Assembly (NCBI RefSeq): GCF_030013205.1
Contig: NZ_CP122648.1
Strand: one strand, 5' to 3'
Origin: Escherichia coli
GTDB taxonomy: Bacteria > Pseudomonadota > Gammaproteobacteria > Enterobacterales > Enterobacteriaceae
DNA: 64,000 nucleotides
Of the stretch, positions 37,609-54,721 are shown one piece after another. The stretch's first letter is position 1. Each line of letters begins with the position of its first letter. The notes under the pieces are model-generated. The model saw nothing but the letters and a program-made list of their open reading frames with translations. It did not search any database and was not told the origin of the DNA. The position numbers were made by a program, and so were the translations under genes.

Positions 37609-37782
37609 ATGAGAAAAGCCAGCGTGAAACCTGTTTTACTCGCTCGTGATCAGATTGAAGCATTACAGCGCATCCAGGACGAGGAACGCCGCAATTCTCC
37701 GCTGGGGATTGCTCCGAGCATTCATGAGGTCGCCCGGCGTTTAATGCAGCGGGCGCTTTATCCCGTAGAACGTCCGGCCTGA
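37609..37782 (+). CDS. hypothetical small protein (57 aa)
   Basis: ATG at 37609, 9 nt after an AGGAG RBS; ORF track 37585..37782. Confidence 0.45.
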   Translation: MRKASVKPVLLARDQIEALQRIQDEERRNSPLGIAPSIHEVARRLMQRALYPVERPA

Positions 37783-37821
37783 TGGTCGTGATTTTTTGGT
37801 GAAAAAAGAGAGGTGGTAAAA

Positions 37822-38400: not shown

Positions 38401-38464
38401 AAAACGTGCTGATTTCAGCCCTGCCGGATTTGGCGGGGCTTATTGATTATAACCGGGTGACATT

Positions 38465-39148
38465 ATGCTTTTAACAGAAATTGAGGCGGCAAAGCAGATT
38501 CGGGACGGTCAGCTACCGTCGCCTTATCAGTTCTCCAACATGTGGCTGGTTAACCTGCGTATTACAGGGACTGGCATGGCCTACCGCGCCGAAGAAAAAG
38601 AATTTGTCTGGCGTTCACCGCAAACTTATCTCAATCCGCAGTTCCTGGAACGTTGCGCCGGAGTACCCGTCATTATCGACCATCCCGAAGGCAAAACCAT
38701 TGAAGACGTTGGCGAACGGTCGCGCATTATTGGCACCGTCATGTTGCCGTATATTCGCGGTGACGAGGTGTGGGGTGTATGCCGGATTTACGGGCAGGAA
38801 ATCATCGATTACATCCAGAAAGCACGGGGGGAGGTATCCACCAGCCCGTCGGTTGTGTTTTGTGGTGCGTCCGGTGGGGCAGAAGTTCCTGATGTAATGG
38901 GCGAGGACAATTTTTTCATTGAGGGTACGCCATTTCTTATCGATCACGTTGCGCTCGTACCGTTGGGCGTATGGGATAAGGGCGGGAAACCATCAGGTGT
39001 GGAAGTAACAACGCCGACAGAAGAAGAACAGCTCGCCGGAATGGTCCGTGAAGTTATTGATGCGGCCTGCAAGCCAGCTCTGGAAAAACTGGAAGAAATA
39101 TCCGGGCGGCTGGATCAACTGGAAAAAAACAGAGTGAGTGAATCATGA
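38465..39148 (+). CDS. hypothetical protein (227 aa)
   Basis: ORF track; overlaps the next gene by 4 nt. Confidence 0.65.
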   Translation: MLLTEIEAAKQIRDGQLPSPYQFSNMWLVNLRITGTGMAYRAEEKEFVWRSPQTYLNPQFLERCAGVPVIIDHPEGKTIEDVGERSRIIGTVMLPYIRGDEVWGVCRIYGQEIIDYIQKARGEVSTSPSVVFCGASGGAEVPDVMGEDNFFIEGTPFLIDHVALVPLGVWDKGGKPSGVEVTTPTEEEQLAGMVREVIDAACKPALEKLEEISGRLDQLEKNRVSES

Positions 39149-39762
39149 AAATTGCTAAAAACTTAAATCTGATTATCCCTGTGCGCACTGAAAAGGGTAA
39201 TGGCTGGCTCCATGCCACGCCGATCAGCAAAGAGGTGTTTAAAGAGCATTTCTTCATCCTGAGTAAAACCTTTTCTGCCATTTTTTCTGAAGGTCTTGGT
39301 GTTGTTGCGGGTCCGCGCGTTGCCTGCCTTATGCTGGAGAAAATCTCCCGTGACTCCGGTTTATGGGATGGGGAGAAAGGCATACGTAATACGCTCATAA
39401 ACGAAATTATTCGCCTGGCAAACCTTGTTTATCCAGTGGAGGGCAAAGGCTACGACACAATCCCTCTCGATATGGCGCTGGAGCGTGAAATCGTTGATTT
39501 GGACGAAGTGGCGGGTGAACTTGTTTTTTTTACATGCGTCTCGTCGATAAATTCCCCGGAGCAGACGAAGGGGACTATGGATGCGGTGAATGGAATATGG
39601 AGCACTCAATGCTCGTCCTTGAGTCTTACGGAATGGATCGATTCATTGCCGACATTGAAGCCTGCCGTCAGTTCTGGCGCGACGGCGAACACGTCATCAG
39701 CGACATCCTCGACTACTCAGCCGGAGCCGGATTCAGAGACATCTGTGCAGATTCCGGTCTGA
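39145..39762 (+). CDS. hypothetical protein (205 aa), Ser/Thr-rich C-terminus
   Basis: ORF track; translationally coupled to the upstream gene. Confidence 0.65.
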   Translation: MKIAKNLNLIIPVRTEKGNGWLHATPISKEVFKEHFFILSKTFSAIFSEGLGVVAGPRVACLMLEKISRDSGLWDGEKGIRNTLINEIIRLANLVYPVEGKGYDTIPLDMALEREIVDLDEVAGELVFFTCVSSINSPEQTKGTMDAVNGIWSTQCSSLSLTEWIDSLPTLKPAVSSGATANTSSATSSTTQPEPDSETSVQIPV

Positions 39763-39826
39763 ATGTAAAAACAGCAGCTCAGTTTCGTGAGCTGCTCAAA
39801 TTCAAAAATCCCGCAGGAGTATTGTA

Positions 39827-41866
39827 ATGTCAGGTAATCAGATGCCAGTTCTGACGCTGGACGTTAATGAAGAACACCTCAAACGGCTTGAGGCAATTTT
39901 TGAAAAGTATCGCAACGGGCTGATGATCGGCCCTGCCGGAACGCCGATGAAAATACCGGGGCAAAGTGGGCGCAGCGTGGGGGCAGGCTTACCCGTGGCG
40001 GCAAAATCTGGTCGGACAGGACCGGATGTATCCGGGAGAGTGAGGGACGAAAAAGGGCGCTTTGTCGGCAGCGGAAAAACAGCAGATTCGTTCGTAAGCA
40101 ACTATAAAGGTCGCGGCGAAACGATGTTTGATAAGTATCTCAGCGGGCTGGGGAAAAATGCCCAACAGACGCTGAAAACTTACAAGCAGATCAATTCTAC
40201 ACTACAGACGACCACTTCAAGATTAAACAACCTGTTTAAAACAACCGTATCGTGGGGAACAAAACTCTCGGTTATGGGCGTTGCCGGACCGTTTGGCTTT
40301 GGCATGATGTCCCGTAGTGTTGTAGAGAAACAGAAAAATGCAGATGAGCTGGTGGCAACGCCAGGAGAGTTAAAGGCGGCAGAAAGCACTTATTCGCCTT
40401 ATTTTTCCGGTGTTGGCAATGTGCTCAATACACTGGCAGCAGCACAAAATGATATATCGCATCCTGCCCGCGTCGGCCTGCTTAATCTGGGGCTAAATCC
40501 TGATAAAAACGCGACTGAAAACCTGCCTGTATTCCTGAAAAAGGTTGCAGAGCTGGCAAAGGAATATCAGGGAAGTGGTCTTACCCAGAGCATGCTCAGG
40601 GGAAGAGGGCTTGGATGGGTAAATTTTGGTCTTACTAACCAGTTAGTCAAATATCAGGACAAAATACCTGAACTCAACAAAGAGTTTTCGTTACGTGCAG
40701 CGCAGAATGATTCGTTACTGACCTCTGCACATACAAGTAAATATCAGAATATTACCAGTAACCTGGAAAAAAACTGGGATCGGCTTACCAGCGGATTTCA
40801 GGGAGCAATGGCGGGGAATGAAGACGCTTTAATCAGAATGTCTGATGGTGCCACGAATGCTGCCCTGAATTTCATGAATGGTGAGAACTTTAAAAGGATT
40901 CTGACGGATGTAGAAACGGGGCTGGATAAACTTGGTAAGTACGTAAATGGCCCGGATTTTAATAACGACCTGAACAATTTTGCCGAAAACGTTGCAAAGG
41001 TTGTTAAGGCACTTAGCGGGTTTGTTGGTTTTGCGGTTGAACATCCCTGGCTTTTTGGGGCCGCAGTACTTGCTGGACCATCGAGAGTTGGTGCTGTGGC
41101 AGCCACAACGACCGGAGTTGCCGCCCGTGTTGTTGGTGGAAGTCTTCTTGGGGCTACAGCCGGAACAGTAGCTGGATTGGCTATTCCTACAAATGACACA
41201 CCTACCACCAGTGAGGAAATGAAAGGGCTGGAGGGGCGTTTCAACTTTGATTATTTTAACGAAGTGCAGGAGTGGCAAAAAAACAATCCGGGTAAGGTCT
41301 GGCCTGGAGGATTGCAGGGATTTTCAAATCAAGTAAACAGATCTGCATATTTATCCAGAGGGATCAGGAATAACAATCCCGGAAATCTTAATTTCGCAGG
41401 ACAAAAAGGGGCTACCCTGGAATCGGGGCCAAATGCCCGTTTTGCCAGCTTCCCGACGATGCTGGAAGGCATTGCCGCCTTAGATCGGCAGGTAATGCTA
41501 TACCTGAAACGCGGCAAAAATACGATTGATCAGATTATTGATATTTATGCCCCTTCATCTGATGGAAATAACACATCGTCCTATAAAAGCTATCTCTCTC
41601 AGTACACCGGATTAGGTGTTAAGGAGAAAATCGATGGTTCTAATTTTGAGGTCATGAAAAAGCTAATTCAGGGCATTATTAACCATGAAAATGGTGCTGC
41701 CGCTAAAGCTGTAAGTGTTGAAGATGTGATCCGGGCGCTGGCTATGAATCGTGGGATTGTCCCTGCAGCAGGAAACAATGATCAGAACGTTAAGTTGGAA
41801 ATTGTTCGGAACGCTGGTGCCGATTACTTCGCGCAACTAATTGGTGCTCAACGGTTCCTGGGATGA
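39827..41866 (+). CDS. large hypothetical protein (679 aa) with glycine-rich hydrophobic segment, tape-measure-like
   Basis: AGGAG RBS; central segment AVLAGPSRVGAVAATTTGVAARVVGGSLLGATAGTVAGLAI; function not assignable from sequence. Confidence 0.7.
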   Translation: MSGNQMPVLTLDVNEEHLKRLEAIFEKYRNGLMIGPAGTPMKIPGQSGRSVGAGLPVAAKSGRTGPDVSGRVRDEKGRFVGSGKTADSFVSNYKGRGETMFDKYLSGLGKNAQQTLKTYKQINSTLQTTTSRLNNLFKTTVSWGTKLSVMGVAGPFGFGMMSRSVVEKQKNADELVATPGELKAAESTYSPYFSGVGNVLNTLAAAQNDISHPARVGLLNLGLNPDKNATENLPVFLKKVAELAKEYQGSGLTQSMLRGRGLGWVNFGLTNQLVKYQDKIPELNKEFSLRAAQNDSLLTSAHTSKYQNITSNLEKNWDRLTSGFQGAMAGNEDALIRMSDGATNAALNFMNGENFKRILTDVETGLDKLGKYVNGPDFNNDLNNFAENVAKVVKALSGFVGFAVEHPWLFGAAVLAGPSRVGAVAATTTGVAARVVGGSLLGATAGTVAGLAIPTNDTPTTSEEMKGLEGRFNFDYFNEVQEWQKNNPGKVWPGGLQGFSNQVNRSAYLSRGIRNNNPGNLNFAGQKGATLESGPNARFASFPTMLEGIAALDRQVMLYLKRGKNTIDQIIDIYAPSSDGNNTSSYKSYLSQYTGLGVKEKIDGSNFEVMKKLIQGIINHENGAAAKAVSVEDVIRALAMNRGIVPAAGNNDQNVKLEIVRNAGADYFAQLIGAQRFLG

Positions 41867-41917
41867 TTTAAATACACGCGCTTTCCGGCGCATTAATACA
41901 GTCTGAGGGGAAGTGTC

Positions 41918-42445
41918 ATGTTTATGAGCAAGGCAGAATATGCCAAACACAAAGGCGTAAGCCGCCAGACAGTTTACGACTGGATCGAGAAAGGCGAAGT
42001 GATCATGTCTGGCAAAAAAATTGATGTGGAAGCGACAGAGCAGCGGAACAGCCCACCAGCACAGGGAAAAGATACCGTTTCTGAAATGTGGCCAGAGAGA
42101 ACGCTGGAAATGACGTGGGGCGAGTTCTGGAAAGCAGTTAAGGCCAGAGACGGTAAAATCCCTGCACCAGTAACGGACAATGACATACAGCAGCGTGTAC
42201 AGGATGCAGCCGGGGAACTATGCTGTGAAGTGCAATTTCTTGATGATGGTGCTATCTGCCTTGAGGATTATGCTGGGCAATATTACTTTGAGCAGTATGA
42301 TTTTCGGGAAAATGCCAGGCTGGCAATTCGTATGCTGCGTTGTGAGCTCTGCTATGTTGCAGGTGATTGTCCCGATGAGCTGGATAACTGGAGTGAAGCC
42401 GGACTAAACGCCCTGGCTGAGTGGGAAAAATCAGGCCATCAATGA
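41918..42445 (+). CDS. HTH protein resembling terminase small subunit Nu1 N-terminus
   Basis: N-terminal KAEYAKHKGVSRQTVYDWIEKGEV resembles the lambda Nu1 winged-HTH region; GAGGGGA RBS; 175 aa. Confidence 0.55.
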   Translation: MFMSKAEYAKHKGVSRQTVYDWIEKGEVIMSGKKIDVEATEQRNSPPAQGKDTVSEMWPERTLEMTWGEFWKAVKARDGKIPAPVTDNDIQQRVQDAAGELCCEVQFLDDGAICLEDYAGQYYFEQYDFRENARLAIRMLRCELCYVAGDCPDELDNWSEAGLNALAEWEKSGHQ

Positions 42446-42451
42446 CCTCAA

Positions 42452-42732
42452 AAAGTGTCAAGTTGAGCAGCTTGCCAGGTTGACACTTTACACTCTGAAC
42501 GCGAAAAAGTGTCAACCTCGCTGTAAGCCCCGCCATTACTGGCCTTTCGCCAGATTTACCACGTCAAAAAGCCGAAAAAATCGCGAAAAGTGTCAAGTTG
42601 CCATGCTTAGAAATGCTAAGGTTTGATAAGGTTTTTCGCGAAAAAGTGTCAAGTGTGTCAACCTGCGATGTTAAGATTTGTTAAGGTCTTAAGCCGGAAA
42701 GTGTCAACCAGCCCCCTAAGATTTCCTAAGGT
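42452..42732. repeat. array of AAAGTGTCAA direct/inverted repeats interleaved with TAAGATTT-nn-TAAGGT motifs
   Basis: AAAGTGTCAA at 42452, 42506, 42587, 42643, 42698; inverted copy 42480-42489; TAAGATTTnnTAAGGT at 42673 and 42717. Confidence 0.75.
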
Positions 42733-42739
42733 GTAAACC

Positions 42740-42919
42740 ATGACCATCACCGAAGCCGATTTGCTGGAGATGATCCGCAGCATTGCCGGAATCAAACAAC
42801 CAGCAAGCAAAATTAACAGGTGTTCAGCGCCTGTTTCCGTTGTGCTGCAGCAGGAACGCCACCAGCATGATGATGTGAGGCCGTATCAGTGGCGGAAACC
42901 GGACAGGCCGCGACGGTGA
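42740..42919 (+). CDS. hypothetical small ORF (59 aa)
   Basis: ATG after an AAGGTG RBS just downstream of the repeat array; below the ORF-track size cutoff. Confidence 0.3.
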   Translation: MTITEADLLEMIRSIAGIKQPASKINRCSAPVSVVLQQERHQHDDVRPYQWRKPDRPRR

Positions 42920-43385
42920 GCGGAACGTTCGGTAAGGCTACAGCCAAGCCAAACATTAAGCCTACGGGTAACCCTTCGAAGGGGCTTTAAAGGGGAGATG
43001 ATTATCCTTACCAGTTGATAAACAAGCAAACCTCAAATTTGAGGTTTGTATCTGCCTGACTTATTTTTGTGCTAAGTTGTTGATATATCCGACGACACAA
43101 ATTTGCGTTCTGTGGCTGGTGGTGGCGAGTTACGACCGATCATTTCCTTCCTGGCAGGTTACATCCTGCTGCTCAACTACTACGGTAGCCACTACGATTA
43201 ACTACGCGATGCCGATATGGGGATTCCCATATCGGTTTATCCGTGATCATCCACCAGCTTGATCACGGTTAACAGGGGATGTGTAATCCCCAAGCGAGTG
43301 ATAAATGTGTATAGAAATGTGTATAGAATTTATTTTAGAACTCGCGAATGCGCCTTTATTACTGGCCTTGTGGCTTGTTGTATTG

Positions 43386-43403
43386 TTCCCTTCGCCCGCT
43401 CCA
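43386..43403 (+). repeat. att direct repeat (18-bp copy of the glyU 3' end) at the island 1 / island 2 junction
   Basis: TTCCCTTCGCCCGCTCCA is identical to tRNA positions 29148-29165. Confidence 0.85.
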
Positions 43404-43900
43404 GAATCTCCCCAGGTGGAGAAGACTAAAAAAGTCTTCTCTGTCAGCAACTTAAACAGTTACCTATTTAATTTGCTTAGGAGTTCTACCATTGTGATCC
43501 GCCCTTAGTAACTGTCACGTTAAGTTACTCGGTGAGATGACAGTATAACCTAACGTTGGCGGCAGTTGCACCTCTCACACCGCGATAGCACAACGTGAAG
43601 ATAAAGCCCATCCTGGCATTGTAATGTCATCGACAGACTGAACACACGCATTTAAGCCCGATGTGCGGCCTTGTGGCTGCGTAAACAGGTTTATGGTGAT
43701 ATTGGTCCTTGCAAACCATATGCAAGCTCTATCAGCGTTTCAGCCACGCTCCCAACGGGTACACGGTTATCCTGATAAGGTGTGATCTTTCTGACAATCT
43801 GATGAAGTCGCTACGCTCCCGCTTGTTGCTGTATCACCAACGGGGCTTTATGGTTTCTATTGTCTATAATAATCTCACAATTCCCCTGCATGAGGTTGAT

Positions 43901-44107
43901 ATGACTGTTAGCTACAAGATTACTTATGAGCATAGAGACGGTGATCAAATTAGAATGGAAGAGGTTTTATTCCATTCAGAGCATGAACCAACAAAAGATG
44001 AAATTCATGATGCAGTAAGAAAAGATACTGTGAGATTTAATTCTCCATCTAATGGAGTAACGGCTGTTTCAGGGTTTAAAGTGATTTCGGTTGTCCCTGT
44101 TCCATGA
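43901..44107 (+). CDS. hypothetical small protein (68 aa)
   Basis: ATG at 43901 after a GAGG RBS; ORF track lists a longer 43709..44107 frame. Confidence 0.5.
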   Translation: MTVSYKITYEHRDGDQIRMEEVLFHSEHEPTKDEIHDAVRKDTVRFNSPSNGVTAVSGFKVISVVPVP

Positions 44108-44140
44108 ATGGTTATAGAAGGGGCTGGAAGCCCCTAATTA

Positions 44141-44461
44141 TTACTTCTTAATATCGCCAGTGCATTGATATTCGATAGTCACAAGTGTTTGCATACAACC
44201 AGATGAAGAAGGTTGTGAACATTGAGAAGTGAATCCACCAAAAGGCTCGGCTCCTGAATATCCCCAAGCGGCACAACGCGCTTTGGCTGCATTCATGCCT
44301 TGTTGTGGATCTACAACAGGACTTTCAAACATACCGTAAGAATAACTCATCCTAACTGTGCCGTCTGATTTGCTTCCACCAGTTGGAACGAGTTGTTTTT
44401 TTGTTGCACATCCAGAAATAATCAATGTTGAAGCAAGTAACAGCATTAAACTTTTGCGCAT
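44141..44461 (-). CDS. small lipoprotein (106 aa), Cys-rich
   Basis: Signal peptide with lipobox LIISGC; convergent with the upstream gene across a GGGGCT-GGA-AGCCCC hairpin (44117-44131). Confidence 0.7.
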   Translation of the reverse strand: MRKSLMLLLASTLIISGCATKKQLVPTGGSKSDGTVRMSYSYGMFESPVVDPQQGMNAAKARCAAWGYSGAEPFGGFTSQCSQPSSSGCMQTLVTIEYQCTGDIKK

Positions 44462-45113
44462 GTAAATAATCCCAAGAGATAATGGTTATGTATTGATTTA
44501 AAGCGTTTTTAGATTAATGCATTAACTTAGCAAAATTAAGTCTTTTCTGATTGTTTGCAGAGTAAAAATGAGTTGCTTTCGAAATTATTTCGGATGTTTA
44601 TTGTATTACGGTTTTTCAAACCGTCTAACTATTGTCGCTATTGAATGGGCAATAATAGCAAGAGGATTCATTTCGTCATTGGAGGCAACAAAAAGTCGGT
44701 AACTGATAGCTACAACGAATGAAACAATAACGAGAAAGCGGATAGTGCTAAGATGTTTTGAAGATAAATGCATAACGCCCCCTAAATGAATGTGAGGGGG
44801 ATTAAATCATGCAAATTTGTTGTGTGCAATACTGGTAATTTATCCTAATAGTCTACTATTCACCTCAATCTACGTCAACCAATATTTGATGTAGATTTGA
44901 TTTTCTTTTAAAAACAATATGTTGCAATTTGTTGGGTTTTGGGGTTAGGTTGTTTTTTGGACGTTTCCATCAAGTGTAAAGATACGTTTAGCCTTCATAG
45001 TGAGTTCAGTTACTGTCTTTTTCTCTGAAATCGGCGCATACGTGATCATCGCTTAACGAGAAGATCAGCGCCGTCAGGTCCATGCAGCGACAATTCTGAA
45101 ATATCAGGAGGCA

Positions 45114-45665
45114 TTACGCTTCCTGCTCTTTCTTGATACGTTGCACCGTCTGTGTGCTGACACTGAAATCTTTTGCTACGCTCCGAATTGATCCACCATT
45201 CGCGAGAGCGGCAACAATTCCCGCTCGATCAATTGCTTTTCCATTACCACGTTTTGCTATACGCCCAGCTGCCTTAGCTGCGGCGATCCCTTCACGTTGA
45301 CGCTCAAGCATCATTTCACGTTCCATTTGTGCCACTGCTGCAAGCACTGTGAGCATCATATTCCCTGCGGGAGAGTTCTTCCCTGTCTTAAAGTCTTCTT
45401 TATGGAAATGCACAGACACGCCGCGCTCTGTTAATTGCTCAACCGTTGCCAGAAGGTCGGCTGTATTACGGCAAAGGCGATCAATACTGTGAACATGCAA
45501 AACATCACCTTCCCGCACATAGTTCATCATTGCCTCAAACTGTGGGCGCTGGGTATTCTTGCCTGACGCTTTATCTTCAAAGACTTTATCAAGAGCTACT
45601 CCAGCTAATTGACGGTCTGTGTTTTGTTGCACAGTCGATACCCTAATGTATCCAATATTAGCCAT
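45114..45665 (-). CDS. serine recombinase (resolvase/invertase family)
   Basis: 183-aa ORF; N-terminal IGYIRVSTVQQ with catalytic Ser; C-terminal HTH (SIRSVAKDFSVSTQTVQRI). Confidence 0.85.
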   Translation of the reverse strand: MANIGYIRVSTVQQNTDRQLAGVALDKVFEDKASGKNTQRPQFEAMMNYVREGDVLHVHSIDRLCRNTADLLATVEQLTERGVSVHFHKEDFKTGKNSPAGNMMLTVLAAVAQMEREMMLERQREGIAAAKAAGRIAKRGNGKAIDRAGIVAALANGGSIRSVAKDFSVSTQTVQRIKKEQEA

Positions 45666-46166
45666 TTTCTTTATTCCTTCTGTGTTGATTTGTGTGTAGT
45701 GATTATTGATCGTGTTGATTAGGTGTGTAAAGGACTTTTTTCACTACGAAATTCGAAGGTTTTTAGTGTGGTGATTTAGCCTGCTTTATCACTACACGTC
45801 TTGCATGAGAATCATGTAGTTACGTTTTGGTAAAATTAGCAAGCTATTAAATAGTGTGTTTATTTTGAAAAAATAATTTTTTGTTGCATTAAAGAAAACT
45901 TGTTCGACAAATAATAGATTGATTTTTAATCAATAATTTCTGATAGTGCTCTGTAAGCCGCATTACACAAGGCTTTGCGAAAGTGATGTAAAAGTGAAGA
46001 AAGTAAGAATTGCACTTTTAAGCTACTTTTCATTGAATTTTTAGTATGGAATTACACAGGGATTAATCATCAATTACATTGAATTTAAGCCTGTTTTAGA
46101 TGTTTAATTTTGGTAGCAAGAAACACTTTTAGAAGATCATTGCACAGATGTTATGTGATAAATGGA

Positions 46167-46325
46167 TGTAACGATGGGTTACATTCAGCTATCTGAAATA
46201 CTCTCTGTAAGAAATTTGGTAGTAACGATTCGTTACATAGACTAATTATTGAATGTAACGATATTACACATCGGTAGTAACGATACGTTACATCGGCAGA
46301 TGATTGGTTGTAACGAAAGGTTACA
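46167..46325. repeat. five palindromic sites TGTAAC-n5-GTTACA (and GTAACGA-n-TCGTTAC variants)
   Basis: Sites at 46167-46183, 46223-46237, 46254-46268, 46276-46290, 46309-46325 inside a 1.7-kb non-coding AT-rich region. Confidence 0.75.
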
Positions 46326-47357
46326 CAATAAGACTAACATCTATAATACTAATAATAAAACTAACTATTAAACTATATAATATAATTCTTTTTTATCTTT
46401 ATAAGAATAATTATAGGGATACCCGTTAGGGAGTCTAACGACTATCCCTTAATCTATTGGCATTCGCCAGAACCTTGCACAAGTTAGAGTGTTAGTCGTT
46501 AGACTGCTTGTCATAACACATAGTTTTTGTTTGTTGATGTTAGTTAGTAGATCTATGTTCGCTTTCCGCTCACAACGAATATGTAATCTACTATGTGCAA
46601 ATAGCCTACGGCTTGCGTAAGGCTAAATAGTCTTGCGCTGTGCGCAGAACGATAATTAACTAACTACCATCTAACGATCATCAATCATCTAAAATAAATT
46701 TCTTGTGCAATGTTCTTGCGAATGCAATTAGGGTAGCGTTACCCCTTTGGGGATGCTAACGCATAACTATAGATCAACCATCAAACAGACAAAAAAGAAA
46801 AATATGGTTTAAAGATGTTAGGTAGTAGATGAGTTTCTACCGCTTAAATCAAGCCGTAGGCGAGCTAAACGTATATAAGGTAGGGAAACACTTAGCGGTA
46901 ATAGATTAGCTCGTTATAGAGATTCTGAGGAGCTTTACAGGTATTTTATAAGGTGTCTGAAATTAGATTTTATCTACCATCACCTTTTCATATACCTAAC
47001 AAATACAAAATAAGCACCTTAAATAAGCCTCTGGCGAGCTAAACGGTCATTACATAAGGGAATGTATTGTTTTTATCAAAACCTCGTTAGAACGCGTTTT
47101 AGAGCGTTATTAGACAATAATGAAGAATAGCACTACACAGGAGAGCACGAATTGCTAAGACAAATTATAAATTGCTGAAATAGATCGGATTTTTTGCAAA
47201 ATGGTATTGACAAATGTCTCTTTCTGTGCAATAATAGGTATTAGAGGGACAGAAAACATTCTTATCCTCTAAGTAATTAAACCAATGCACCGCACTTTGA
47301 GCCGTCAGGCTGCAAGGTGTCTTTTTCTTTTAACCAAATAGAATAGGAGGTTAATTA

Positions 47358-47540
47358 ATGAAATATTTCACTCCACAGGATGTAGTAGAAGCCTGGAAAC
47401 GTGGTGAGATCAATCGTTTTAAAGTAAGGATGAACAGGAACACAGCGCGACGCTGTGGTTATCCAGAGCGTGAAAAATGTTTTGACGATGCACTAAAAAT
47501 TATTGATGAACTGCGTAAGGCAGAAGTAGAGAAAGAATAA
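47358..47540 (+). CDS. hypothetical small protein (60 aa)
   Basis: Strong AGGAGG RBS; ORF track. Confidence 0.65.
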   Translation: MKYFTPQDVVEAWKRGEINRFKVRMNRNTARRCGYPEREKCFDDALKIIDELRKAEVEKE

Positions 47541-47561
47541 TAACAGGAGAAGGAGAAAACT

Positions 47562-47729
47562 ATGAGCGAAACTAAGAAACCAATTCCGCGCACTTACCTA
47601 CACGTTGACCCTGAAATCTTCAAGGTTTTATTTGCTGAAGCCAAGAAAAGGCAAATTATGGTCAGTGATTTGATGTTAGAAATCATTACTGAAGCAGCAG
47701 AGAACATCAAACAAAAAAAGGGTAAGTGA
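47562..47729 (+). CDS. ribbon-helix-helix-like small protein (55 aa)
   Basis: Manual translation MSETKKPIPRTYLHVDPEIFKVLFAEAKKRQIMVSDLMLEIITEAAENIKQKKGK; GGAGAAGGAG RBS; below the ORF-track cutoff. Confidence 0.55.
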   Translation: MSETKKPIPRTYLHVDPEIFKVLFAEAKKRQIMVSDLMLEIITEAAENIKQKKGK

Positions 47730-47782
47730 TCCTCATTCACTTTAGTAGCGCATTAAGCGTGATTTATAAGGAGATAATTCTA

Positions 47783-48463
47783 ATGTCTAAAATTAAATTG
47801 ATTCGTGAAAAATACCAGTATGTTGATAAACAAACAGGAGAAATTAAAGACAGAACTTTGAATATACCACACTACTTTTGTGAGATTGAATTCATCTACT
47901 CCTCAAATATTGAGGATGGAAAAGCGAAGTTTAGTGCAGAAATGCAAAAATTATATTGCTATGTTTCAGATTGGGAGAAATCAGGGGGGATATGTTTTGA
48001 AACACAAACGAAGTTAAGTAAAGTTTGTGGCTGTAGCCGTAAGACAGTTAATGAATTGATTGGTCTTATGATTAAAATCGGTCTTTTAGAAGAGGTCGGA
48101 GAACGAATCCCAAAACGTCCTTTAAAATTACGTGCGCTACTTCTCACAGATGCACATATTACTCCCCCTGGAGAATCATCACTACCTGATCCTTCTGAGA
48201 AAGAAGACGAATCTAATGAAATATTGAATGTTTCCGAAATCATCCTTGAAGAAGAAACACAAGAGCCAGAGTTCCCTGAGCGGCCCGAAATTTTTACTTG
48301 GCTTCTTTCCCTTGATAAGAAGAAACCACCGCACGAAGAAACAGAAGATTTTGTAAAACGTGCATTAGATTCAAAGAATATCTATCTTGAGAAACAGGCT
48401 TTTCACGATCTGATAATATCTCTAAGAGAAAAAAGTGAAATATACGATTCAATACCATTCTAA
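47783..48463 (+). CDS. winged-HTH protein (226 aa), possible replication initiator or regulator
   Basis: AAGGAG RBS; HTH-like TQTKLSKVCGCSRKTVNELIGLMIKIGLLEE; acidic C-terminal half. Confidence 0.65.
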   Translation: MSKIKLIREKYQYVDKQTGEIKDRTLNIPHYFCEIEFIYSSNIEDGKAKFSAEMQKLYCYVSDWEKSGGICFETQTKLSKVCGCSRKTVNELIGLMIKIGLLEEVGERIPKRPLKLRALLLTDAHITPPGESSLPDPSEKEDESNEILNVSEIILEEETQEPEFPERPEIFTWLLSLDKKKPPHEETEDFVKRALDSKNIYLEKQAFHDLIISLREKSEIYDSIPF

Positions 48464-48472
48464 GGAGAATAA

Positions 48473-48742
48473 ATGACTTATAACATCACTATAGGAAACA
48501 AAACTATTGAAATAACTGAAAGCGGATACAACATTTTAAAAGCTATTTTGGAAATAGAGTTCTCACCGCCGACAGTGGTTAGCTTTTGTAGTTTAGGCGG
48601 CTACAGCGCACAACACGTGAATCATTGGTTAAACCATTTTACATCGTTCGGTGTGCTGGATTATGAAGGGATTAACAGCACTACATTTCGTCTTTTGAAA
48701 TTAAACAAAGATTTTGAATTGTTTATCACAAACAATCAATAA
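48473..48742 (+). CDS. hypothetical protein (89 aa)
   Basis: AAGGAG RBS; ORF track. Confidence 0.6.
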   Translation: MTYNITIGNKTIEITESGYNILKAILEIEFSPPTVVSFCSLGGYSAQHVNHWLNHFTSFGVLDYEGINSTTFRLLKLNKDFELFITNNQ

Positions 48743-48838
48743 CAACAGATCGGGCAATACATATGGCAAATGCATTTATGGCGATATTCATTGTAACAAT
48801 GGTATCAAGTTTTTATAATCCACATAAAAAGAGGGAAA

Positions 48839-49222
48839 ATGGGAAGAAAGAAAAAGAACAACTTAAAACGTATTGAAAAAAACAGTAACTTCAATTCAAC
48901 AAGACAACGTCCACCGACACACACCAATAACGAAATTCCAGGGGAAGAGATAATATTTATTCTTGAAACAGAATCCCCTGAATTAAGCGATGAAGAATTA
49001 GAAATAATCCAGTCAATGCCAGGCGTTTACTTTCGCCCAAGAACAAGAAAACAAACTATCATTTCTGATGGCACTCTGAAACGTTGGCAGCTTTTAGGGT
49101 TTAGCTCCTATCATCATTTTTTGGGATTTAACGCTTTCAATAATTGTGTAGGTGGTGCATCGGAAGTCGATCTGATGGCTCATTTAGAAGATACATTAGC
49201 TTCTAACAAACGTTCTAACTAA
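48839..49222 (+). CDS. hypothetical protein (127 aa)
   Basis: AGAGGG RBS; ORF track. Confidence 0.6.
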   Translation: MGRKKKNNLKRIEKNSNFNSTRQRPPTHTNNEIPGEEIIFILETESPELSDEELEIIQSMPGVYFRPRTRKQTIISDGTLKRWQLLGFSSYHHFLGFNAFNNCVGGASEVDLMAHLEDTLASNKRSN

Positions 49223-49237
49223 TAAAATGATGGGAGT

Positions 49238-49510
49238 ATGTATAAGCGCCCAATGAAAATAATCGAAAAAGGAAAAATAATGATTAACTATCAACTATTA
49301 GAAACAACATTTTTTAAAGAAGCAAAACAACTTGCAGAAGTGTTTATTTCACTGGCTGAACGAGCAAAAGAAGAAAATGATTTTGCCTTGCTTGATGATG
49401 TGCTGGATGACATTGCAACCTATCGTATACCGCTACAGATTGCACTAAACAAGGCTAAACAGATTCAGCAAGAGATGGAATCAGCAGATCAAGGAGAGAT
49501 TGCACAATGA
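49238..49510 (+). CDS. hypothetical protein (90 aa)
   Basis: ORF track; 4-nt overlap with the next gene. Confidence 0.55.
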   Translation: MYKRPMKIIEKGKIMINYQLLETTFFKEAKQLAEVFISLAERAKEENDFALLDDVLDDIATYRIPLQIALNKAKQIQQEMESADQGEIAQ

Positions 49511-49815
49511 CAGACAACATTCTGGAAGTTATGGACACTCTTTCGGATCGGATGATCGCCCTACAGACACGTATCAATCAAGCCTATTCAGATTTATGCG
49601 ATTACACGCTCTCTCAATGCGTTAGTAGCTTAATGAAGGTGAATGTAAGCCTTGACGATTTCATCTCTCTGGTGAGCGATTTAGAGCTATCTAAGGACGA
49701 TGTCAGGCTGTGTACTCAAACCATCACAGACACCGCCAGCACGTTAAAGGCTGCAAGTGAAGAGATTCAGCAATTAGTAGATGATTTAGCAAAAAGTGCT
49801 ATTTTCTCCAAATGA
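49507..49815 (+). CDS. hypothetical protein (102 aa)
   Basis: AAGGAG RBS; ORF track. Confidence 0.6.
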   Translation: MTDNILEVMDTLSDRMIALQTRINQAYSDLCDYTLSQCVSSLMKVNVSLDDFISLVSDLELSKDDVRLCTQTITDTASTLKAASEEIQQLVDDLAKSAIFSK

Positions 49816-50807
49816 TAATGAAAATCATTTGCATTTATAACGATTTCATTATATAATGATATTAGGGGTAGATAAAAAGGTTTTGACTGGTGTTAATCCT
49901 TCTACTGTCATAAATCCCTGCATATGGAAGGTGATAGCCTCAAGGGTTGAGTGGCATTAACCTCTAACAAATATTACCTTCCATCTCTCAAGAAGTTTTA
50001 GAATAATCATAACTCCCTCTTTGATTGTTGATTGTTTCTACGTTGTGTTGATGAATGTTGTTAGGCATTGTGCTTAATTTTGATAAAAGCGGGTAGGTGT
50101 TATCTCCTTGCCCTTCCCGCTCTTATTTTTCATCTATGCTTATCCTAAAGCTCCTTATTTTGTCCGAAAACATTAAAGAGCCTTACACTGATAGTTATAT
50201 TTTATAACTATTTACTAACATCATTAAACTCTTATTTAATGACAGAAGTTAGTAACAGAATAATCTATTAAGTTGTTGTCAAAAAACTATCATCTGCATA
50301 GCGTTAGCCGCAAGTAGAGAGAGTTTAGTTAAGAATGGTGCAATAAACTTTGGAAATATTGATAGCAAAACTAGTTTTATAGAATGCGGATCTATAATCT
50401 TTGGTTGTAAAAACGATTTTCTGAAACGGTAGATTACTGTTGGTGTAGTTAATCCTTATTAAAAATTTAATCTGTGAGTAGATTGGAATAGTGATTCCTT
50501 AAAATCTGACTGGTGCATCCACACCATGAAAGATAGCAGTTGGCCACCGCGCCCCGAATAGATATTCCTGATTGATTCCGCATGTTTTCCTAAGAGCATG
50601 TTTTCAGGAATATCTGTTCACCCTTTAAACCTATCTTTAAGCATGTTTAATAAGCATTCTTAGAGATACGTTTAAAACCTCCTCAAGGTTTTACTTATCG
50701 CTGTGTATTGCCCGACACGTTAATAAATCCCCCTCGCTATTGTCAGATTGAACCTCTTATAGCCTGGGGGATTTATTAAATTCCAGCATAATGGAATCGT
50801 TATATAA

Positions 50808-51017
50808 ATGAAACAAGAAATTATCCTGAAATATGGCAATGAAAAGTTAACACTAACTGAAGATGTGTTGAATGCTACAGCCTACGCGCTTGGCATCACT
50901 CCCACAGAATTAAAGAAACAGTGTGAACGTCTTTATAAGGCTGAAAGCAATAAACCATCTCACCAAGATTTGATTAATGCTAAAGCTCAACAAATCAAAC
51001 AATCTAAGGAAAAATAA
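50808..51017 (+). CDS. hypothetical small protein (69 aa)
   Basis: ORF track; stop overlaps the next start (TAATG). Confidence 0.5.
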   Translation: MKQEIILKYGNEKLTLTEDVLNATAYALGITPTELKKQCERLYKAESNKPSHQDLINAKAQQIKQSKEK

Positions 51018-51391
51018 TGGCTATTTTAAAATTAAGCGATGTTTTCCCACATCGTAAAAGCATCACTGACGTAGTGAGCTATGCAACCGACCCTTACGCG
51101 GCTGTAGAAAGCAAAAAATTTGCAGCACTTGCACAAGATGTAACGTGCGGCGACCTCATTGATTCATCCGGCGCTAAATATGTTAGCGGCGCTGATGTTC
51201 TTGTCGTTGTGTCTGACTTCGTAACTGCTGATTCAAATAAAACAGTTAACGTGCTTCGTGCTAATGCCGGACTCGTTTGCATCAAAGCTGATGCCCTGAA
51301 TGCCGAAGGCGCTGTAAAAGAAGCTGCTATTGCAGCTCTCGCTGCTAAAGGCTTCCAGCTTGAAGGCTTCCACTCTGTTTTCACATCTTAA
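51017..51391 (+). CDS. putative phage head decoration-like protein (124 aa)
   Basis: Position directly upstream of a major-capsid-like gene, as for lambda D/E; the assignment rests on context only. Confidence 0.45.
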   Translation: MAILKLSDVFPHRKSITDVVSYATDPYAAVESKKFAALAQDVTCGDLIDSSGAKYVSGADVLVVVSDFVTADSNKTVNVLRANAGLVCIKADALNAEGAVKEAAIAALAAKGFQLEGFHSVFTS

Positions 51392-51407
51392 GAAGGAATA
51401 AATAATA

Positions 51408-52436
51408 ATGATTATCGGAAATGAAGTGGTTGATCTTGCTCCACTGTTCGAATTAAACGACTCACGCAATTACCTACTGTCTACTCTGGATTTTACTGAT
51501 CCTGTGCCTGTAGAAAGTCACAAAGTGGCTGTTTCCCAGCTTATCGAGAGCAATGAATCTCTGTTCAACCATCCTACAAGCCGTTTTAGCTCTGAGCATA
51601 ACGTTACTAAGCGTGAGAACGGGGAAGAATGGCTGATTGAAATCCCTTACTTCCTGCGTGAAGACCTGATCAAACCGCAGGACGTGCAAGGCAAACGCAA
51701 AGCCGGAAGCTCTATTGAAGAAACACTGCCGGATCTGTATGCGGAATATATCGCTACACACAATGTTGCATTCCAGCGCACTAAAGAAAGCATCCTCGCG
51801 GCTTCTCTGTTCTCTGGCAAGACACATACCCCGAAAACTGACGATGTTCTGATCGACTACAGCACTCTGTTCGGTGTGTCTCCAATGACTGCAACCGTTG
51901 ACGCATCCAGCACCAACACAATGACCGTATTCAAGCAATTTGATCAGATGCATACGGATATGATTGCTAAGGCACAAAGCCAGGCTGCAACCATTGAGCG
52001 TGTTGTTGTGTTCTGTAAACCTGCGGCATTCAACGCTATTCGTTACAGCGTTGGCATGGTTAATGCGTTCCAGTATGCAAGCCCTGTAGACGATGCAAAC
52101 GTGGTGTTTAATGTGCGTTCTCTGCTGCCTGGTGTAACTACTTTCACCATTCCAGGAACTAACATTGACCTGATCAAAGTGACTGATCCGCTGCTGCTGG
52201 CACATATGACCGCTGACGCTGTAGCTATTCCTAAACTTGCTAAGGGGGCAGGTGTTTACCAAGCTATTTTTGGTGCGCCTTCCAGTTCATTCGATCTGCT
52301 GTCTCAAGGCGCTAAAGAGTATTACAGCTATGCTTTCGAATCGAATCGCGGCGACGCAGTGCACGTAGTGACCGAGAATAGCTCGCTTGTGGTTAACCAC
52401 GGTGTTGGCTTCTCTGTGCAGATCACAGTAGCGTAA
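51408..52436 (+). CDS. putative phage major capsid protein, lambda E-like
   Basis: 342 aa (lambda gpE is 341 aa); C-terminus ...GVGFSVQITVA resembles the gpE C-terminus ...DEFVSVQLA; N-terminal DLAPLFEL region. Confidence 0.5.
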   Translation: MIIGNEVVDLAPLFELNDSRNYLLSTLDFTDPVPVESHKVAVSQLIESNESLFNHPTSRFSSEHNVTKRENGEEWLIEIPYFLREDLIKPQDVQGKRKAGSSIEETLPDLYAEYIATHNVAFQRTKESILAASLFSGKTHTPKTDDVLIDYSTLFGVSPMTATVDASSTNTMTVFKQFDQMHTDMIAKAQSQAATIERVVVFCKPAAFNAIRYSVGMVNAFQYASPVDDANVVFNVRSLLPGVTTFTIPGTNIDLIKVTDPLLLAHMTADAVAIPKLAKGAGVYQAIFGAPSSSFDLLSQGAKEYYSYAFESNRGDAVHVVTENSSLVVNHGVGFSVQITVA

Positions 52437-52590
52437 AAAGTGTTAAAGACGTTCCCCTACGTCTGGAAATAATCGGGGCAATAAGGGTAAGGGATAATCA
52501 TATAAGCAAAATATGCGCTGTCTCTTGCACTTTTTGTTTTTCTACTGTCTACAAACCCAAATAAAAATATATATATGTGAGAGAAAACCA

Positions 52591-52788
52591 ATGAATACAG
52601 AAAATTCACAGGCATTAATTCTTAAATCTGTAAAAGAACTGGCAGCTATTAGCGATGACTCAATAATCAATGTCAGTGCCTTATGCAGAATGCTTTCAAT
52701 TGATGCAAATAATGTGCGGCAGCGTGTGTTTCAGACTGGATGCAGCACTTTTGAAGCAATTACATACTACTGTTCTAAAAAACAATAA
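52591..52788 (+). CDS. hypothetical small protein (65 aa)
   Basis: ATG at 52591 within the ORF-track frame 52513..52788. Confidence 0.45.
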   Translation: MNTENSQALILKSVKELAAISDDSIINVSALCRMLSIDANNVRQRVFQTGCSTFEAITYYCSKKQ

Positions 52789-52822
52789 TAAACAACAATC
52801 ATAATACAGGGAAACAATTAAC

Positions 52823-54646: not shown

Positions 54647-54721
54647 ATCTCCAGACAACCAATATCACTTAAATAAGTGATAGTCTTAATACTAGTTTTT
54701 AGACTAGTCATTGGAGAGCAG

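What the first reader, a model, noticed from the sequence alone, without database searches (positions are those of the whole stretch)
45114..47357. Serine recombinase next to a 1.7-kb non-coding AT-rich region packed with palindromic repeats
A resolvase/invertase-family gene (45114-45665, minus) is followed by an unusually long gene-free stretch. It contains five TGTAAC-n5-GTTACA-type palindromes within 160 bp (46167-46325), nested hairpins built on CGTTAG/CTAACG arms (46420-46450, 46735-46770), and two copies of AAGCC-nn-GGCGAGCTAAACG about 175 bp apart (46851-46872, 47026-47047). Candidate functions are a res/invertible switch, a centromere-like partition site, a plasmid-type iteron origin, or a structured non-coding RNA locus.
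Basis: seen in the sequence. Interest (0 to 1): 0.6.

Follow-up and report, generated by a model that had tools for sequence, protein, structure and literature searches.

The report
Replication origin of an E. coli phage satellite
The gene-free stretch is most likely the replication-and-control region of an undescribed mobile island found in about one in seven E. coli genomes: its palindromes look like the docking sites of the island's own replication starter protein, and some lytic phages carry a nuclease built from copies of that protein's DNA-binding domain.

Summary
The recombinase, however, has no detectable link to the palindromes. The 1.7-kb gap lies in a 14.7-kb island (43404-58150) integrated at tRNA-Gly. 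Related islands occur in 743 of 5426 complete E. coli genomes, and the gap is never annotated.

Across 41 related loci the palindrome array always sits at the same position, next to the most AT-rich 80 bp of the window. It comes in five sequence types. Each type goes with one type of N-terminal winged-helix domain in the 226-aa protein encoded 1.4 kb downstream (38 of 38 informative loci), even though the DNA between them is reshuffled. That domain resembles RepA_N initiators, including RepA of the Vibrio satellite PLE.

Four lytic coliphages of about 150 kb (inny, muut and relatives) carry fusion proteins made of two of these domains plus a GIY-YIG-type endonuclease. This mirrors the ICP1 Odn nuclease that cuts the PLE origin.

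I conclude that the array is an iteron origin. The recombinase is an optional module with its own res-like sites. The right end holds a conserved promoter, a leader hairpin and a terminator. The hairpin-rich middle remains unexplained. No experiment supports any of this yet.

The parts
45114..45665 (-). Small serine recombinase (resolvase/invertase family, 183 aa). It is an optional accessory module of the island.
   Evidence: phrog_125 5e-62. Tn3 and gamma-delta resolvase 1e-27, Gin 5e-25. Replaced by a 192-aa tyrosine recombinase in L006/L007 and absent in L009/L011, L033, L041, L045 and L047.
45690..45800 (.). Likely recombinase control and res-like site: three copies of GTGTAGTGAT(T/A)A at 45694+, 45766+ and 45786-. 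The last two form a 32-bp inverted pair. The site overlaps a promoter-like element for the recombinase at 45731-45702 (minus strand).
   Evidence: Only 5 sites in the 64-kb window match with 2 or fewer mismatches, and 3 of them fall within these 104 bp. Promoter scan. The segment 45666-~45870 is present only where the serine recombinase gene is present. Binding is inferred, not shown.
45870..46160 (.). Left block shared by all island variants, carrying direct repeats TTACACA(A/G)GG at 45962 and 46051. Function unknown.
   Evidence: Homology in recombinase-less variants starts at about query position 205-257. All variants examined carry 1-4 direct copies.
46167..46325 (.). Iteron array, type A: four 17-bp palindromes TGTAAC-N5-GTTACA (46167, 46221, 46276, 46309) and one degenerate copy (46253). 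Spacing is 54, 55 and 33 bp, roughly whole helical turns.
   Evidence: The same slot holds five alternative palindrome arrays in relatives. Types B, C and E are phased at 22-23 bp. Each array type matches the N-terminal domain type of the downstream protein.
46330..46415 (.). AT-rich stretch (87% A+T) abutting the last iteron. Proposed DNA-unwinding element.
   Evidence: It contains the most AT-rich 80-bp window of the 64-kb sequence. It is conserved next to every iteron type.
46417..46930 (.). Hairpin-rich middle block, version V1. It contains hairpin 46417-46449, the long inverted repeat 46454-46483/46702-46731, and two motifs also kept in the otherwise unalignable version V2: CCGCTCACAACGA (46566) and TGCGCTGTGCGC (46634). 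Function unresolved.
   Evidence: Folding z-scores are -7.25 (+ strand) and -6.67 (- strand). The first hairpin is cleanly deleted in L020/L024, the long inverted repeat is kept in only 3 of 13 loci, and L006 breaks a stem. V1 and V2 have no consensus structure.
46851..47062 (.). 174-bp direct duplication marked by AAGCC-nn-GGCGAGCTAAACG (46851 and 47025).
   Evidence: Collapsed to one copy in L013, L019, L023 and L024.
47207..47235 (+). Strong sigma-70-type promoter (TTGACA-17-TG-AATAAT) for the rightward operon.
   Evidence: 11 of 12 consensus positions with an extended -10. The TTGACA core is kept in all 41 loci; the base before it is A or G.
47241..47331 (+). Leader RNA: a 5' hairpin (47241-47272) and an intrinsic terminator (stem 47293-47319, U-tract 47320-47331) that ends about 27 nt before the first start codon.
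   Evidence: Present in 41 of 41 loci. The hairpin arms differ between variants while pairing is kept. The inner terminator stem gains or loses a pair on both sides. G-U pairs fit only the + strand.
47358..47540 (+). Conserved 60-aa protein, first gene of the operon. Function unknown.
47562..47729 (+). 55-aa predicted ribbon-helix-helix protein, present in only some variants.
   Evidence: 100% identical over 53 aa to phage inny gene 185. The RHH assignment is my reading of the sequence; no tool tested it.
47783..48463 (+). 226-aa initiator-like protein. It has an exchangeable N-terminal winged-helix domain (type A here), a conserved hinge, an acidic linker, a small helical C-terminal domain, and a C-terminus ...IYDSIPF.
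   Evidence: Pfam HTH_36. Weak PHROG matches to replication initiator and O-like families. Model of pLDDT 72. Fold matches to RepA_N N-terminal domains 4RO3, 4PQL, 4PT7 and 5KBJ. Domain layout from the alignment.

Best explanation
The stretch 45666-47357 is the replication-and-control region of a 14.7-kb island integrated at a tRNA gene. The island behaves like a phage satellite.

The palindrome array (46167-46325) is a set of iterons. Dimers of the island's own initiator (47783-48463) bind them through an exchangeable N-terminal winged-helix domain. Binding opens the adjoining AT-rich stretch (46330-46415) to start replication of the excised island. The initiator has no helicase or primase domain. 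Its C-terminal part, which ends in a tail resembling the SSB C-terminus, probably recruits host or helper-phage replication proteins.

The serine recombinase is a separate, optional module. Its own res-like sites lie in the first ~140 bp of the gap, and it probably resolves multimers.

The right end holds a strong conserved promoter followed by a leader hairpin and an intrinsic terminator. Together they gate the operon that encodes the initiator.

What is shown: the repeat anatomy, the covariation, the fold resemblance and the phage fusion proteins. What is inferred: DNA binding, origin firing, recruitment through the tail, resolution by the recombinase, and attenuation at the leader terminator.
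For: 1. Position and anatomy. In every variant an array of 3-6 palindromic sites is followed by the same AT-rich block. Arrays of types B, C and E are phased at 22-23 bp. The AT-rich block contains the most AT-rich 80 bp of the window.

2. Covariation. Five palindrome types (A-E) match five N-terminal domain types of the downstream protein in 38 of 38 informative loci out of 41. Meanwhile the ~1 kb between them (middle block V1/V2, small ORF) is reassorted: types A, B, C and E each occur on both backbones.

3. The sites occur nowhere else in the window. They lie ~900 bp from the operon promoter, which does not fit an operator.

5. Precedent. PLE has a 2.7-kb non-coding region with semi-palindromic iterons bound by a RepA_N initiator (PMC7145576). 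There the origin and the RepA N-terminal domain swap together as a module (PMC8263062).

6. Phage fusions. Lytic coliphages inny, muut, Mt1B1_P17 and BI-EHEC encode fusions of two of these N-terminal domains (A+B, D+B, E+B) with an endonuclease domain (phrog_681 4e-18; Pfam MUG113 5e-4; T5orf172 only a weak, non-significant match). Phage inny has no clustered A or B sites in its own genome.

7. Initiator C-termini end in ...DFDIPF or ...YDSIPF. The E. coli SSB tip is MDFDDDIPF, which recruits PriA and many other proteins (PMC10018359, PMC5531588).
Against: No experiment shows binding, replication or cleavage.

The origin lies 1.4 kb from the initiator gene, not inside or directly beside it as in lambda, pSK41 or SaPIs.

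There is no DnaA box with one mismatch or fewer in the gap.

The 41 loci are related by descent, so the covariation count overstates the number of independent events.

The gap is no better conserved than fourfold-degenerate sites of flanking genes, so conservation alone proves nothing.

About 900 bp of the gap (45870-46160 and 46417-47200) are not explained by this model.
Confidence: 0.78

Rival explanations
1. The palindromes are operators, and the 226-aa winged-helix protein is an immunity or transcription regulator, as RefSeq labels some copies. On this reading the array controls transcription rather than replication, and the phage fusions would attack or mimic a regulatory site.
Against: The sites are ~900 bp upstream of the only strong operon promoter and ~450 bp from the recombinase promoter, and none lies at either promoter. 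They have a conserved AT-rich partner and 22-bp phasing. PHROG matches are all to replication initiators. Full-domain fold matches are to RepA_N initiators. The SSB-like tail and acidic linker have no obvious role in a repressor.
Confidence: 0.1
2. The gap is a recombination substrate of the adjacent serine recombinase: either a res site spread over the region, or an invertible promoter switch.
For: A resolvase/invertase gene is adjacent. Three copies of a 12-bp motif lie directly upstream of it, two of them as a 32-bp inverted pair.
Against: That motif cluster covers only ~110 bp. The palindromes change type while the recombinase stays 99% identical. The rest of the gap persists with a tyrosine recombinase or with none. 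No inverted arrangement appears in the 41 loci or in the 218 E. coli records that cover at least 80% of the gap. The weak fourth motif copy at 47127 is not conserved.
Confidence: 0.03
3. The array is a centromere-like partition site bound by a small adaptor protein.
For: Phased repeat arrays bound by small dimeric DNA-binding proteins are typical of plasmid centromeres. A small RHH-like protein (my reading of the sequence; no tool confirmed the fold) is encoded nearby at 47562-47729.
Against: The island has no ParA-, ParM- or TubZ-type gene. The RHH gene is missing in many variants that keep an array. Array type tracks the 226-aa protein, not the RHH protein.
Confidence: 0.03
4. The hairpin-rich middle (46417-46930) makes a large structured non-coding RNA, or acts as single-stranded DNA hairpins: a priming site next to the origin, or a packaging signal. 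This would add to the origin model rather than replace it.
For: Folding energies are far below shuffles on both strands (z -7.25 and -6.67). One compensatory A-T to G-C change occurs in the first hairpin of L006. Two short motifs survive between otherwise unalignable versions V1 and V2. The version tracks the initiator's C-terminal type in 38 of 38 loci.
Against: There is no Rfam match even at E<=5. No convincing promoter or terminator brackets the block. Hairpins are deleted or broken in natural variants. V1 and V2 have no consensus structure. Equal stability on both strands does not favour RNA. The V1/V2 coupling may simply reflect two backbone lineages.
Confidence: 0.2

Closest known systems
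Replicon of the Vibrio cholerae satellite PLE (RepA plus origin in a 2.7-kb non-coding region) and the ICP1 origin-directed nuclease Odn (PMC7145576, PMC8263062)
   Different: I saw no sequence similarity to PLE genes. Here there are five specificities rather than two. The phage fusions carry two DNA-binding heads in tandem. The island uses a tyrosine integrase at tRNA genes, not a large serine recombinase. The island encodes distant copies of helper-like structural genes. Its initiator ends in an SSB-like tail. Nothing has been tested experimentally.
ori lambda with the O protein
   Same: Four dyad-symmetric ~18-bp iterons are bound by dimers through the initiator's N-terminal domain, next to an AT-rich region (established knowledge). 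The island protein has weak PHROG matches to O-like families.
   Different: ori lambda lies inside the O gene, and O recruits P-DnaB. Here the origin is 1.4 kb upstream of the gene, and I identified no P-like loader.
Iteron plasmids (R6K, F, P1, pSC101, RK2) and RepA_N plasmids (pSK41, pTZ2162)
   Same: Arrays of initiator sites are phased at ~22 bp beside an AT-rich region. The N-terminal domain sets specificity and the C-terminal domain is host-specific (PMC7145576 on RepA_N). Fold matches to 4PQL, 4PT7, 4PTA and 5KBJ.
   Different: Classical iterons are direct repeats bound by monomers, and these plasmids usually have DnaA boxes. Here the sites are palindromes and there is no DnaA box. The Pfam RepA_N model does not match.
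Tn3 / gamma-delta res-resolvase
   Same: A 183-aa serine recombinase is 35-40% identical to the resolvases over its full length. A cluster of repeated half-sites lies directly upstream and overlaps its promoter.
   Different: Only three motif copies are visible and no three-subsite layout could be established. The element is an island, not a transposon, and the module is dispensable in the family.

Membership tests
Iteron-type replication origin | Array of three or more repeated initiator-binding sites | tested here: met
   Four full palindromes and one degenerate copy in 160 bp, against 0.44 strand-hits expected in the window. Relatives carry 3-6 sites.
Iteron-type replication origin | Adjacent AT-rich unwinding region | tested here: met
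   46336-46415 is 88.75% A+T, the highest in the 64-kb window, and is conserved next to every array type.
Iteron-type replication origin | Cognate initiator encoded by the same element, with matching specificity | tested here: met
   Array type matches the protein's N-terminal domain type in 38 of 38 informative loci, despite reshuffling of the DNA in between. Binding itself is inferred.
Iteron-type replication origin | DnaA boxes near the iterons | tested here: not met
   No TTATCCACA with one mismatch or fewer in 45666-47357.
Iteron-type replication origin | Supports replication in vivo | not testable with these tools
   Needs a mini-replicon assay or origin mapping.
RepA_N initiator family (Pfam PF06970) | Match to the RepA_N sequence model | tested here: not met
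   The Pfam scan gives only HTH_36 (2e-4). The profile search against PDB sequences finds no RepA.
RepA_N initiator family (Pfam PF06970) | N-terminal domain with the RepA_N / DnaD-N fold | tested here: inconclusive
RepA_N initiator family (Pfam PF06970) | Semi-palindromic iterons converging on a poly-A tract | tested here: inconclusive
   The sites are palindromic, but their centres are not poly-A.
PLE-like satellite with phage Odn counter-attack | Origin repeats and the initiator's DNA-binding domain swap as one module | tested here: met
   Compare PMC8263062.
PLE-like satellite with phage Odn counter-attack | Phage protein that fuses the initiator's DNA-binding domain to a GIY-YIG/T5orf172-type nuclease | tested here: met
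   inny_184 is 87% identical to the type-A domain over 140 aa, followed by a type-B domain and an endonuclease domain (phrog_681 4e-18; MUG113 5e-4; T5orf172 weak and non-significant). Fusions D+B and E+B occur in other ~150-kb phages. Cleavage was not tested.
PLE-like satellite with phage Odn counter-attack | Excision, replication and transfer triggered by the helper phage | not testable with these tools
   Only indirect evidence. The island's 225-aa and 607-aa proteins are 49% and 30% identical to adjacent phage inny genes 106 and 105. The capsid protein is ~23-25% identical to those of phAPEC8-like phages.
PLE-like satellite with phage Odn counter-attack | Homology to PLE genes, including a large serine recombinase integrase | tested here: not met
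   The integrase is a tyrosine recombinase. No PLE-like hit turned up in any protein search.
Tn3-type res / resolvase | Small serine recombinase | tested here: met
   Full-length alignment to Tn3 and gamma-delta resolvases, including the N-terminal RVST motif.
Tn3-type res / resolvase | res site with several dimer-binding subsites upstream of the gene | tested here: inconclusive
   Three motif copies in 104 bp, two as a 32-bp inverted pair. No clear three-subsite layout.
Hin/Gin-type invertible switch | Two inverted crossover sites flanking a segment, with both orientations found in nature | tested here: not met
   No flanking pair is conserved. All loci are colinear.
Plasmid partition centromere | Partner partition NTPase gene | tested here: not met
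   None among the island's ORFs.
Known RNA families (Rfam 15) | Covariance-model match | tested here: not met
   Nothing at gathering score. Nothing in the gap at E<=5.

The most novel reading that the evidence does not exclude
The island is the founding example of an undescribed family of E. coli (and other enterobacterial) phage satellites that parasitise large lytic myoviruses of the Stephanstirmvirinae (phAPEC8, inny, muut). On this reading the gap is their origin. Its five interchangeable iteron/initiator specificities would be the product of an arms race with phage-encoded, two-headed origin-directed nucleases that were assembled from DNA stolen from the satellites. This would be a second, independent and genetically tractable case of the PLE-ICP1 type of conflict.
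Probability: 0.5. Interest if true: 0.8.

Novelty: new variant of a known kind. Interest (0 to 1): 0.66.

Why it matters
If correct, it explains a conspicuous unannotated region present in about 14% of complete E. coli genomes. It also identifies a replication module that can be recognised from sequence alone: array type plus initiator domain type.

It points to a satellite-helper pair in E. coli K-12-infecting phages in which origin-targeting nucleases and origin swapping can be tested directly. So far that conflict is documented only for Vibrio cholerae PLE and phage ICP1.

For phage therapy it suggests that resident islands, and the phage nucleases aimed at them, may help decide which strains a Stephanstirmvirinae phage can grow on.

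The SSB-like tail on the initiator suggests a testable route for how helicase-less initiators recruit a replisome. The PLE work explicitly left that question open.

Tried and rejected
- Rfam at gathering score and at E<=5: nothing in the gap. One sub-threshold RAGATH-7 hit lies outside it.
- DNA similarity of the gap to 50,697 phage records, near and distant modes: nothing useful. Only two plasmid records match, one of them an IncF plasmid that has picked up an island copy riddled with IS3.
- Lambda and P2/P4 cohesive-end sequences: absent from the gap.
- Inversion polymorphism: none.
- A weak fourth recombinase motif near 47127 as a possible inversion partner: not conserved.
- Consensus RNA structure of the middle block across versions V1 and V2, both strands: none beyond a 5-bp hairpin.
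- Small conserved ORFs in the gap: indels of 2 and 7 nt between variants rule out the 43-aa ORF 46489-46620.
- Primosome-assembly-site idea (my recollection of an AAGCGG core resembling the GAGCGG in the conserved loop): the literature search gave nothing usable. I kept it only as a lead.
- The 11-nt identity of that loop to a lac operator half-site: I treat it as coincidence.
- DnaA boxes: none.
- One-genome-per-species scan with the 60-aa protein: only Escherichia, plus two contigs binned as Bacillota that carry hits 96% and 60% identical to the E. coli protein and may be mis-binned. The later protein search did find initiator relatives in Klebsiella, Citrobacter, Enterobacter and Cronobacter.
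- Literature searches for a description of this island family or of E. coli Odn-like nucleases: none found in the searchable library.
Full report
OBSERVATION

- ORF 45114-45665 (minus strand) is a 183-aa small serine recombinase. It matches phrog_125 at 5e-62 and aligns over its full length to Tn3 and gamma-delta resolvases and to Gin.
- The next 1692 bp (45666-47357) contain no ORF above 43 aa. RefSeq leaves the region unannotated in every one of the 40 homologous E. coli records I listed from the 744 that match.
- Four full palindromes of the form TGTAAC-N5-GTTACA and one degenerate copy lie in 46167-46325. That gives 8 strand-hits in the window against 0.44 expected.
- The nested hairpins, a 30-nt long-range inverted repeat, and the 174-bp direct duplication are real.

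CONTEXT

The window is E. coli chromosome, 100% identical to swine ETEC strains over the finding. Copies of the 3' end of tRNA-Gly(CCC) at 29134, 43386 and 58128 delimit two tandem islands. The finding lies in the second island, 43404-58150. Its gene order is:
- a short cargo region (hypothetical gene, YecR lipoprotein);
- the serine recombinase;
- the 1.7-kb gap;
- an operon of small genes;
- a second gap of about 1 kb;
- a distant HK97-type capsid gene;
- a 607-aa tape-measure-like gene;
- an IS3 copy;
- a 225-aa baseplate-like gene;
- a tyrosine integrase.

Homologues of the gap occur in 743 of 5426 complete E. coli genomes, with up to four copies per genome. They sit at glyU, thrW and leuX, and as remnants next to thiM.

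DISSECTING THE GAP BY ITS MOSAIC

BLAST and alignments of 18 RefSeq loci and 25 IMG/VR loci show that the gap is built of blocks that reassort.
- The first ~205 bp are present only where the serine recombinase gene is present.
- A left block (about 45870-46160) is common to all variants.
- The palindrome slot is replaced wholesale between variants.
- An AT-rich block follows the palindrome slot in every variant.
- The ~600-bp middle exists in two versions, V1 and V2, that cannot be aligned with each other.
- The right ~350 bp are again common to all.

THE PALINDROMES ARE A SPECIFICITY MODULE TIED TO THE DOWNSTREAM PROTEIN

The same slot holds five kinds of palindrome array:
- A: GTAAC-N5-GTTAC
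- B: AGGAA-N5-TTCCT
- C: AGGTCAC-N-GTGAGCT
- D: TGATA-N4-TATCA
- E: ACAGAA-N3-TGTTA

Arrays B, C and E are phased at 22-23 bp.

The 226-aa protein encoded at 47783-48463 is modular. It has a variable N-terminal domain of about 115 aa in five unrelated-looking types, a conserved hinge (ALPLTDAHITPP), an acidic linker, and one of two C-terminal domains. Array type equals N-terminal type in 38 of 38 informative loci. The three uninformative loci are two truncated contigs and one decayed remnant whose sites are degenerate type B.

The coupling holds although types A, B, C and E each occur on both backbones (V1 and V2) and the small ORF between them is reshuffled. The loci are related, so the count is not 38 independent events. 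Even so, linkage alone does not explain repeated co-transfer of two patches 1.4 kb apart across reshuffled intervening DNA.

The type-A motif occurs nowhere else in the 64 kb. The array abuts the most AT-rich 80 bp of the window.

WHAT THE PROTEIN IS

By sequence it has only a Pfam HTH_36 domain and weak PHROG matches, all to replication initiators, O-like proteins or DnaD-like loaders.

Nearly all C-termini end in DFD(I/L)PF or YDS(I/L)PF. These resemble the SSB tip MDFDDDIPF, which recruits PriA and many other proteins (PMC10018359, PMC5531588). That the tail recruits replication proteins is my inference.

INDEPENDENT SUPPORT FROM PHAGES

A tblastn search of the island protein against 50,697 phage genomes hit one gene, inny_184, of the 147-kb lytic coliphage inny (Justusliebigvirus, Stephanstirmvirinae). 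Its 367 residues are laid out as follows:
- a type-A N-terminal domain, 87% identical over 140 aa;
- an island-type linker;
- most of a type-B N-terminal domain;
- an endonuclease domain (phrog_681 4e-18; Pfam MUG113 5e-4; T5orf172 only a weak, non-significant match).

Related proteins combine D+B (phage muut) and E+B (150-kb contigs) with the same nuclease. Four distinct phages of 146-151 kb carry the B-plus-nuclease part at 94.7% identity or more. The nuclease domain alone is related to homing-endonuclease-like genes of T5-like phages.

Phage inny shares 626 bp at 96% DNA identity with window 47550-48175. Its gene 185 is 100% identical over 53 aa to the island's 55-aa protein. The phage genome has no clustered type-A or type-B sites.

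This is the architecture of ICP1 Odn: a RepA-domain mimic fused to a T5orf172 nuclease that cuts the PLE origin at its iterons. In PLE this attack is thought to drive swapping of the origin/RepA modules (PMC8263062).

The same phage group supplies the island's nearest structural relatives. The 225-aa protein is 49% identical to inny_106 and the 607-aa protein 30% identical to the adjacent inny_105. The capsid protein is 23-25% identical to phAPEC8-like capsid proteins. I infer, but have not shown, that these phages are the island's helpers or targets.

THE RECOMBINASE IS A SEPARATE MODULE

Recombinases 99% identical sit beside arrays of types A, B, C and E. A 192-aa tyrosine recombinase, or nothing, replaces the serine recombinase in other copies.

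Directly upstream of the gene, three copies of GTGTAGTGAT(T/A)A lie within 104 bp, two of them as a 32-bp inverted pair. Only five such sites exist in the whole window. They overlap a promoter-like element. A res-like autoregulated site for multimer resolution is the simplest reading.

No inversion was seen in any locus.

THE RIGHT END

A promoter whose TTGACA core is kept in all 41 loci (11 of 12 consensus positions, extended -10) sits at 47207-47235. It is followed by:
- a 5' hairpin whose arms differ between variants while pairing is kept;
- a 12-bp-stem intrinsic terminator with a U-tract (47293-47331) that ends ~27 nt before the first start codon.

The terminator is present in 41 of 41 loci. 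Its outer stem never varies, its inner stem gains or loses a pair on both sides, and it contains G-U pairs that fit only the + strand. I read this as a leader that attenuates the operon encoding the initiator. What relieves termination is unknown.

WHAT REMAINS UNEXPLAINED

- The middle block folds far better than shuffles on both strands (z about -7). However, natural variants delete or break its hairpins, and V1 and V2 have no common structure.
- Only two short motifs, CCGCTCACA(A/C)CGA and TGCGCTGTGCGC, survive in both versions.
- Version V1/V2 tracks the initiator's C-terminal type in 38 of 38 loci. This may simply reflect two backbone lineages.
- The gap is no better conserved than fourfold-degenerate sites of neighbouring genes.
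- Neither the TTACACA(A/G)GG repeats left of the array nor the second 1-kb gap has an assigned role.

COMPARISON AND NOVELTY

The region works like an iteron origin. In overall logic it is closest to the PLE replicon and its conflict with ICP1 Odn. It is not a demonstrable member of the RepA_N sequence family (the Pfam model does not match), and it shows no homology to PLE.

Its differences are: palindromic sites without DnaA boxes, an origin 1.4 kb from its initiator gene, five specificities, two-headed phage nucleases, and an SSB-like tail.

I found no description of this island family or of these phage nucleases in the searchable literature. That search cannot exclude papers outside the library.

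I rate it a new variant of a known kind, with moderate to high interest. That interest comes mainly from the satellite-phage conflict the region exposes, not from the origin itself.

Noticed in passing
L050:3001-4104 (phage inny MN850601, gene inny_184); also P0121, P0122, P0123: Lytic coliphages of 146-151 kb encode fusion proteins made of two different island-initiator DNA-binding domains (A+B, D+B, E+B) and a GIY-YIG-superfamily endonuclease domain. This is an Odn-like design with two heads.
   Followed up: yes
window 47550-48175 and phage inny 120157-120781: 626 bp (the 55-aa RHH-like gene plus the first ~131 codons of the initiator) are 96% identical between the island and the lytic phage. 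The phage copy of the small protein (inny_185) is 100% identical over 53 aa.
   Followed up: partly
window 51017-56728: The island carries distant copies of helper-type structural genes in the same order as phage inny. These are a capsid gene (23-25% identity), a 607-aa tape-measure-like gene (30% to inny_105) and a 225-aa baseplate-like gene (49% to inny_106). It has no portal or terminase gene.
   Followed up: partly
window 49816-50807: A second gene-free, AT-rich stretch of about 1 kb sits between the early operon and the structural genes. It is unannotated at the same position in related islands. It contains only a sub-threshold RAGATH-7 match (19 bits against 112 needed).
   Followed up: no
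window 29157-43403: A different island sits in tandem at the same tRNA-Gly. It has its own integrase (29281-30534), an int-alpA RNA (30579-30646, Rfam 45.5 bits) and a 679-aa tape-measure-like protein. It shares no DNA similarity with the second island.
   Followed up: partly
window 54677-55950: An IS3-family element (two overlapping transposase ORFs) is inserted between the 607-aa and 225-aa genes. The otherwise identical island in strain K_EC180 lacks it.
   Followed up: partly
window 48440-48463 and the initiator C-termini in L004-L049: Three different C-terminal domain versions of the initiator all end in Y...D-x-(I/L)PF (DFDIPF or YDSIPF). This resembles the SSB C-terminal tip MDFDDDIPF.
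   Followed up: partly
window 43404-45113; L006:639-2471, L008:555-2281, L012:1-1968: The region between the left attachment site and the gap is a variable cargo slot. It holds YecR here, and DUF4145, an HNH endonuclease, GmrSD and HTH genes elsewhere, like the defence hot spots of other satellites.
   Followed up: no
L006:2480-2700 and L009:2016-2400: Variants with a tyrosine recombinase, or with no recombinase, carry other short repeat families at the left of the gap: GATTAAA x6 and GGTATTTAAGG x3. Their binders are unknown.
   Followed up: no
L001 (plasmid NZ_CP126938.1, 28181-55843): An IncF conjugative plasmid from an avian E. coli carries a copy of this island interrupted by three IS3 copies, one of them inside the gap. 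It lies next to sopAB.
   Followed up: no
L002:22784-23463 (strain K_EC180): RefSeq annotates the initiator gene of the otherwise near-identical island as one short protein plus a frameshifted pseudogene, whereas the window has one intact 226-aa ORF. I did not check whether this reflects a real difference or an annotation effect of the mosaic protein.
   Followed up: no
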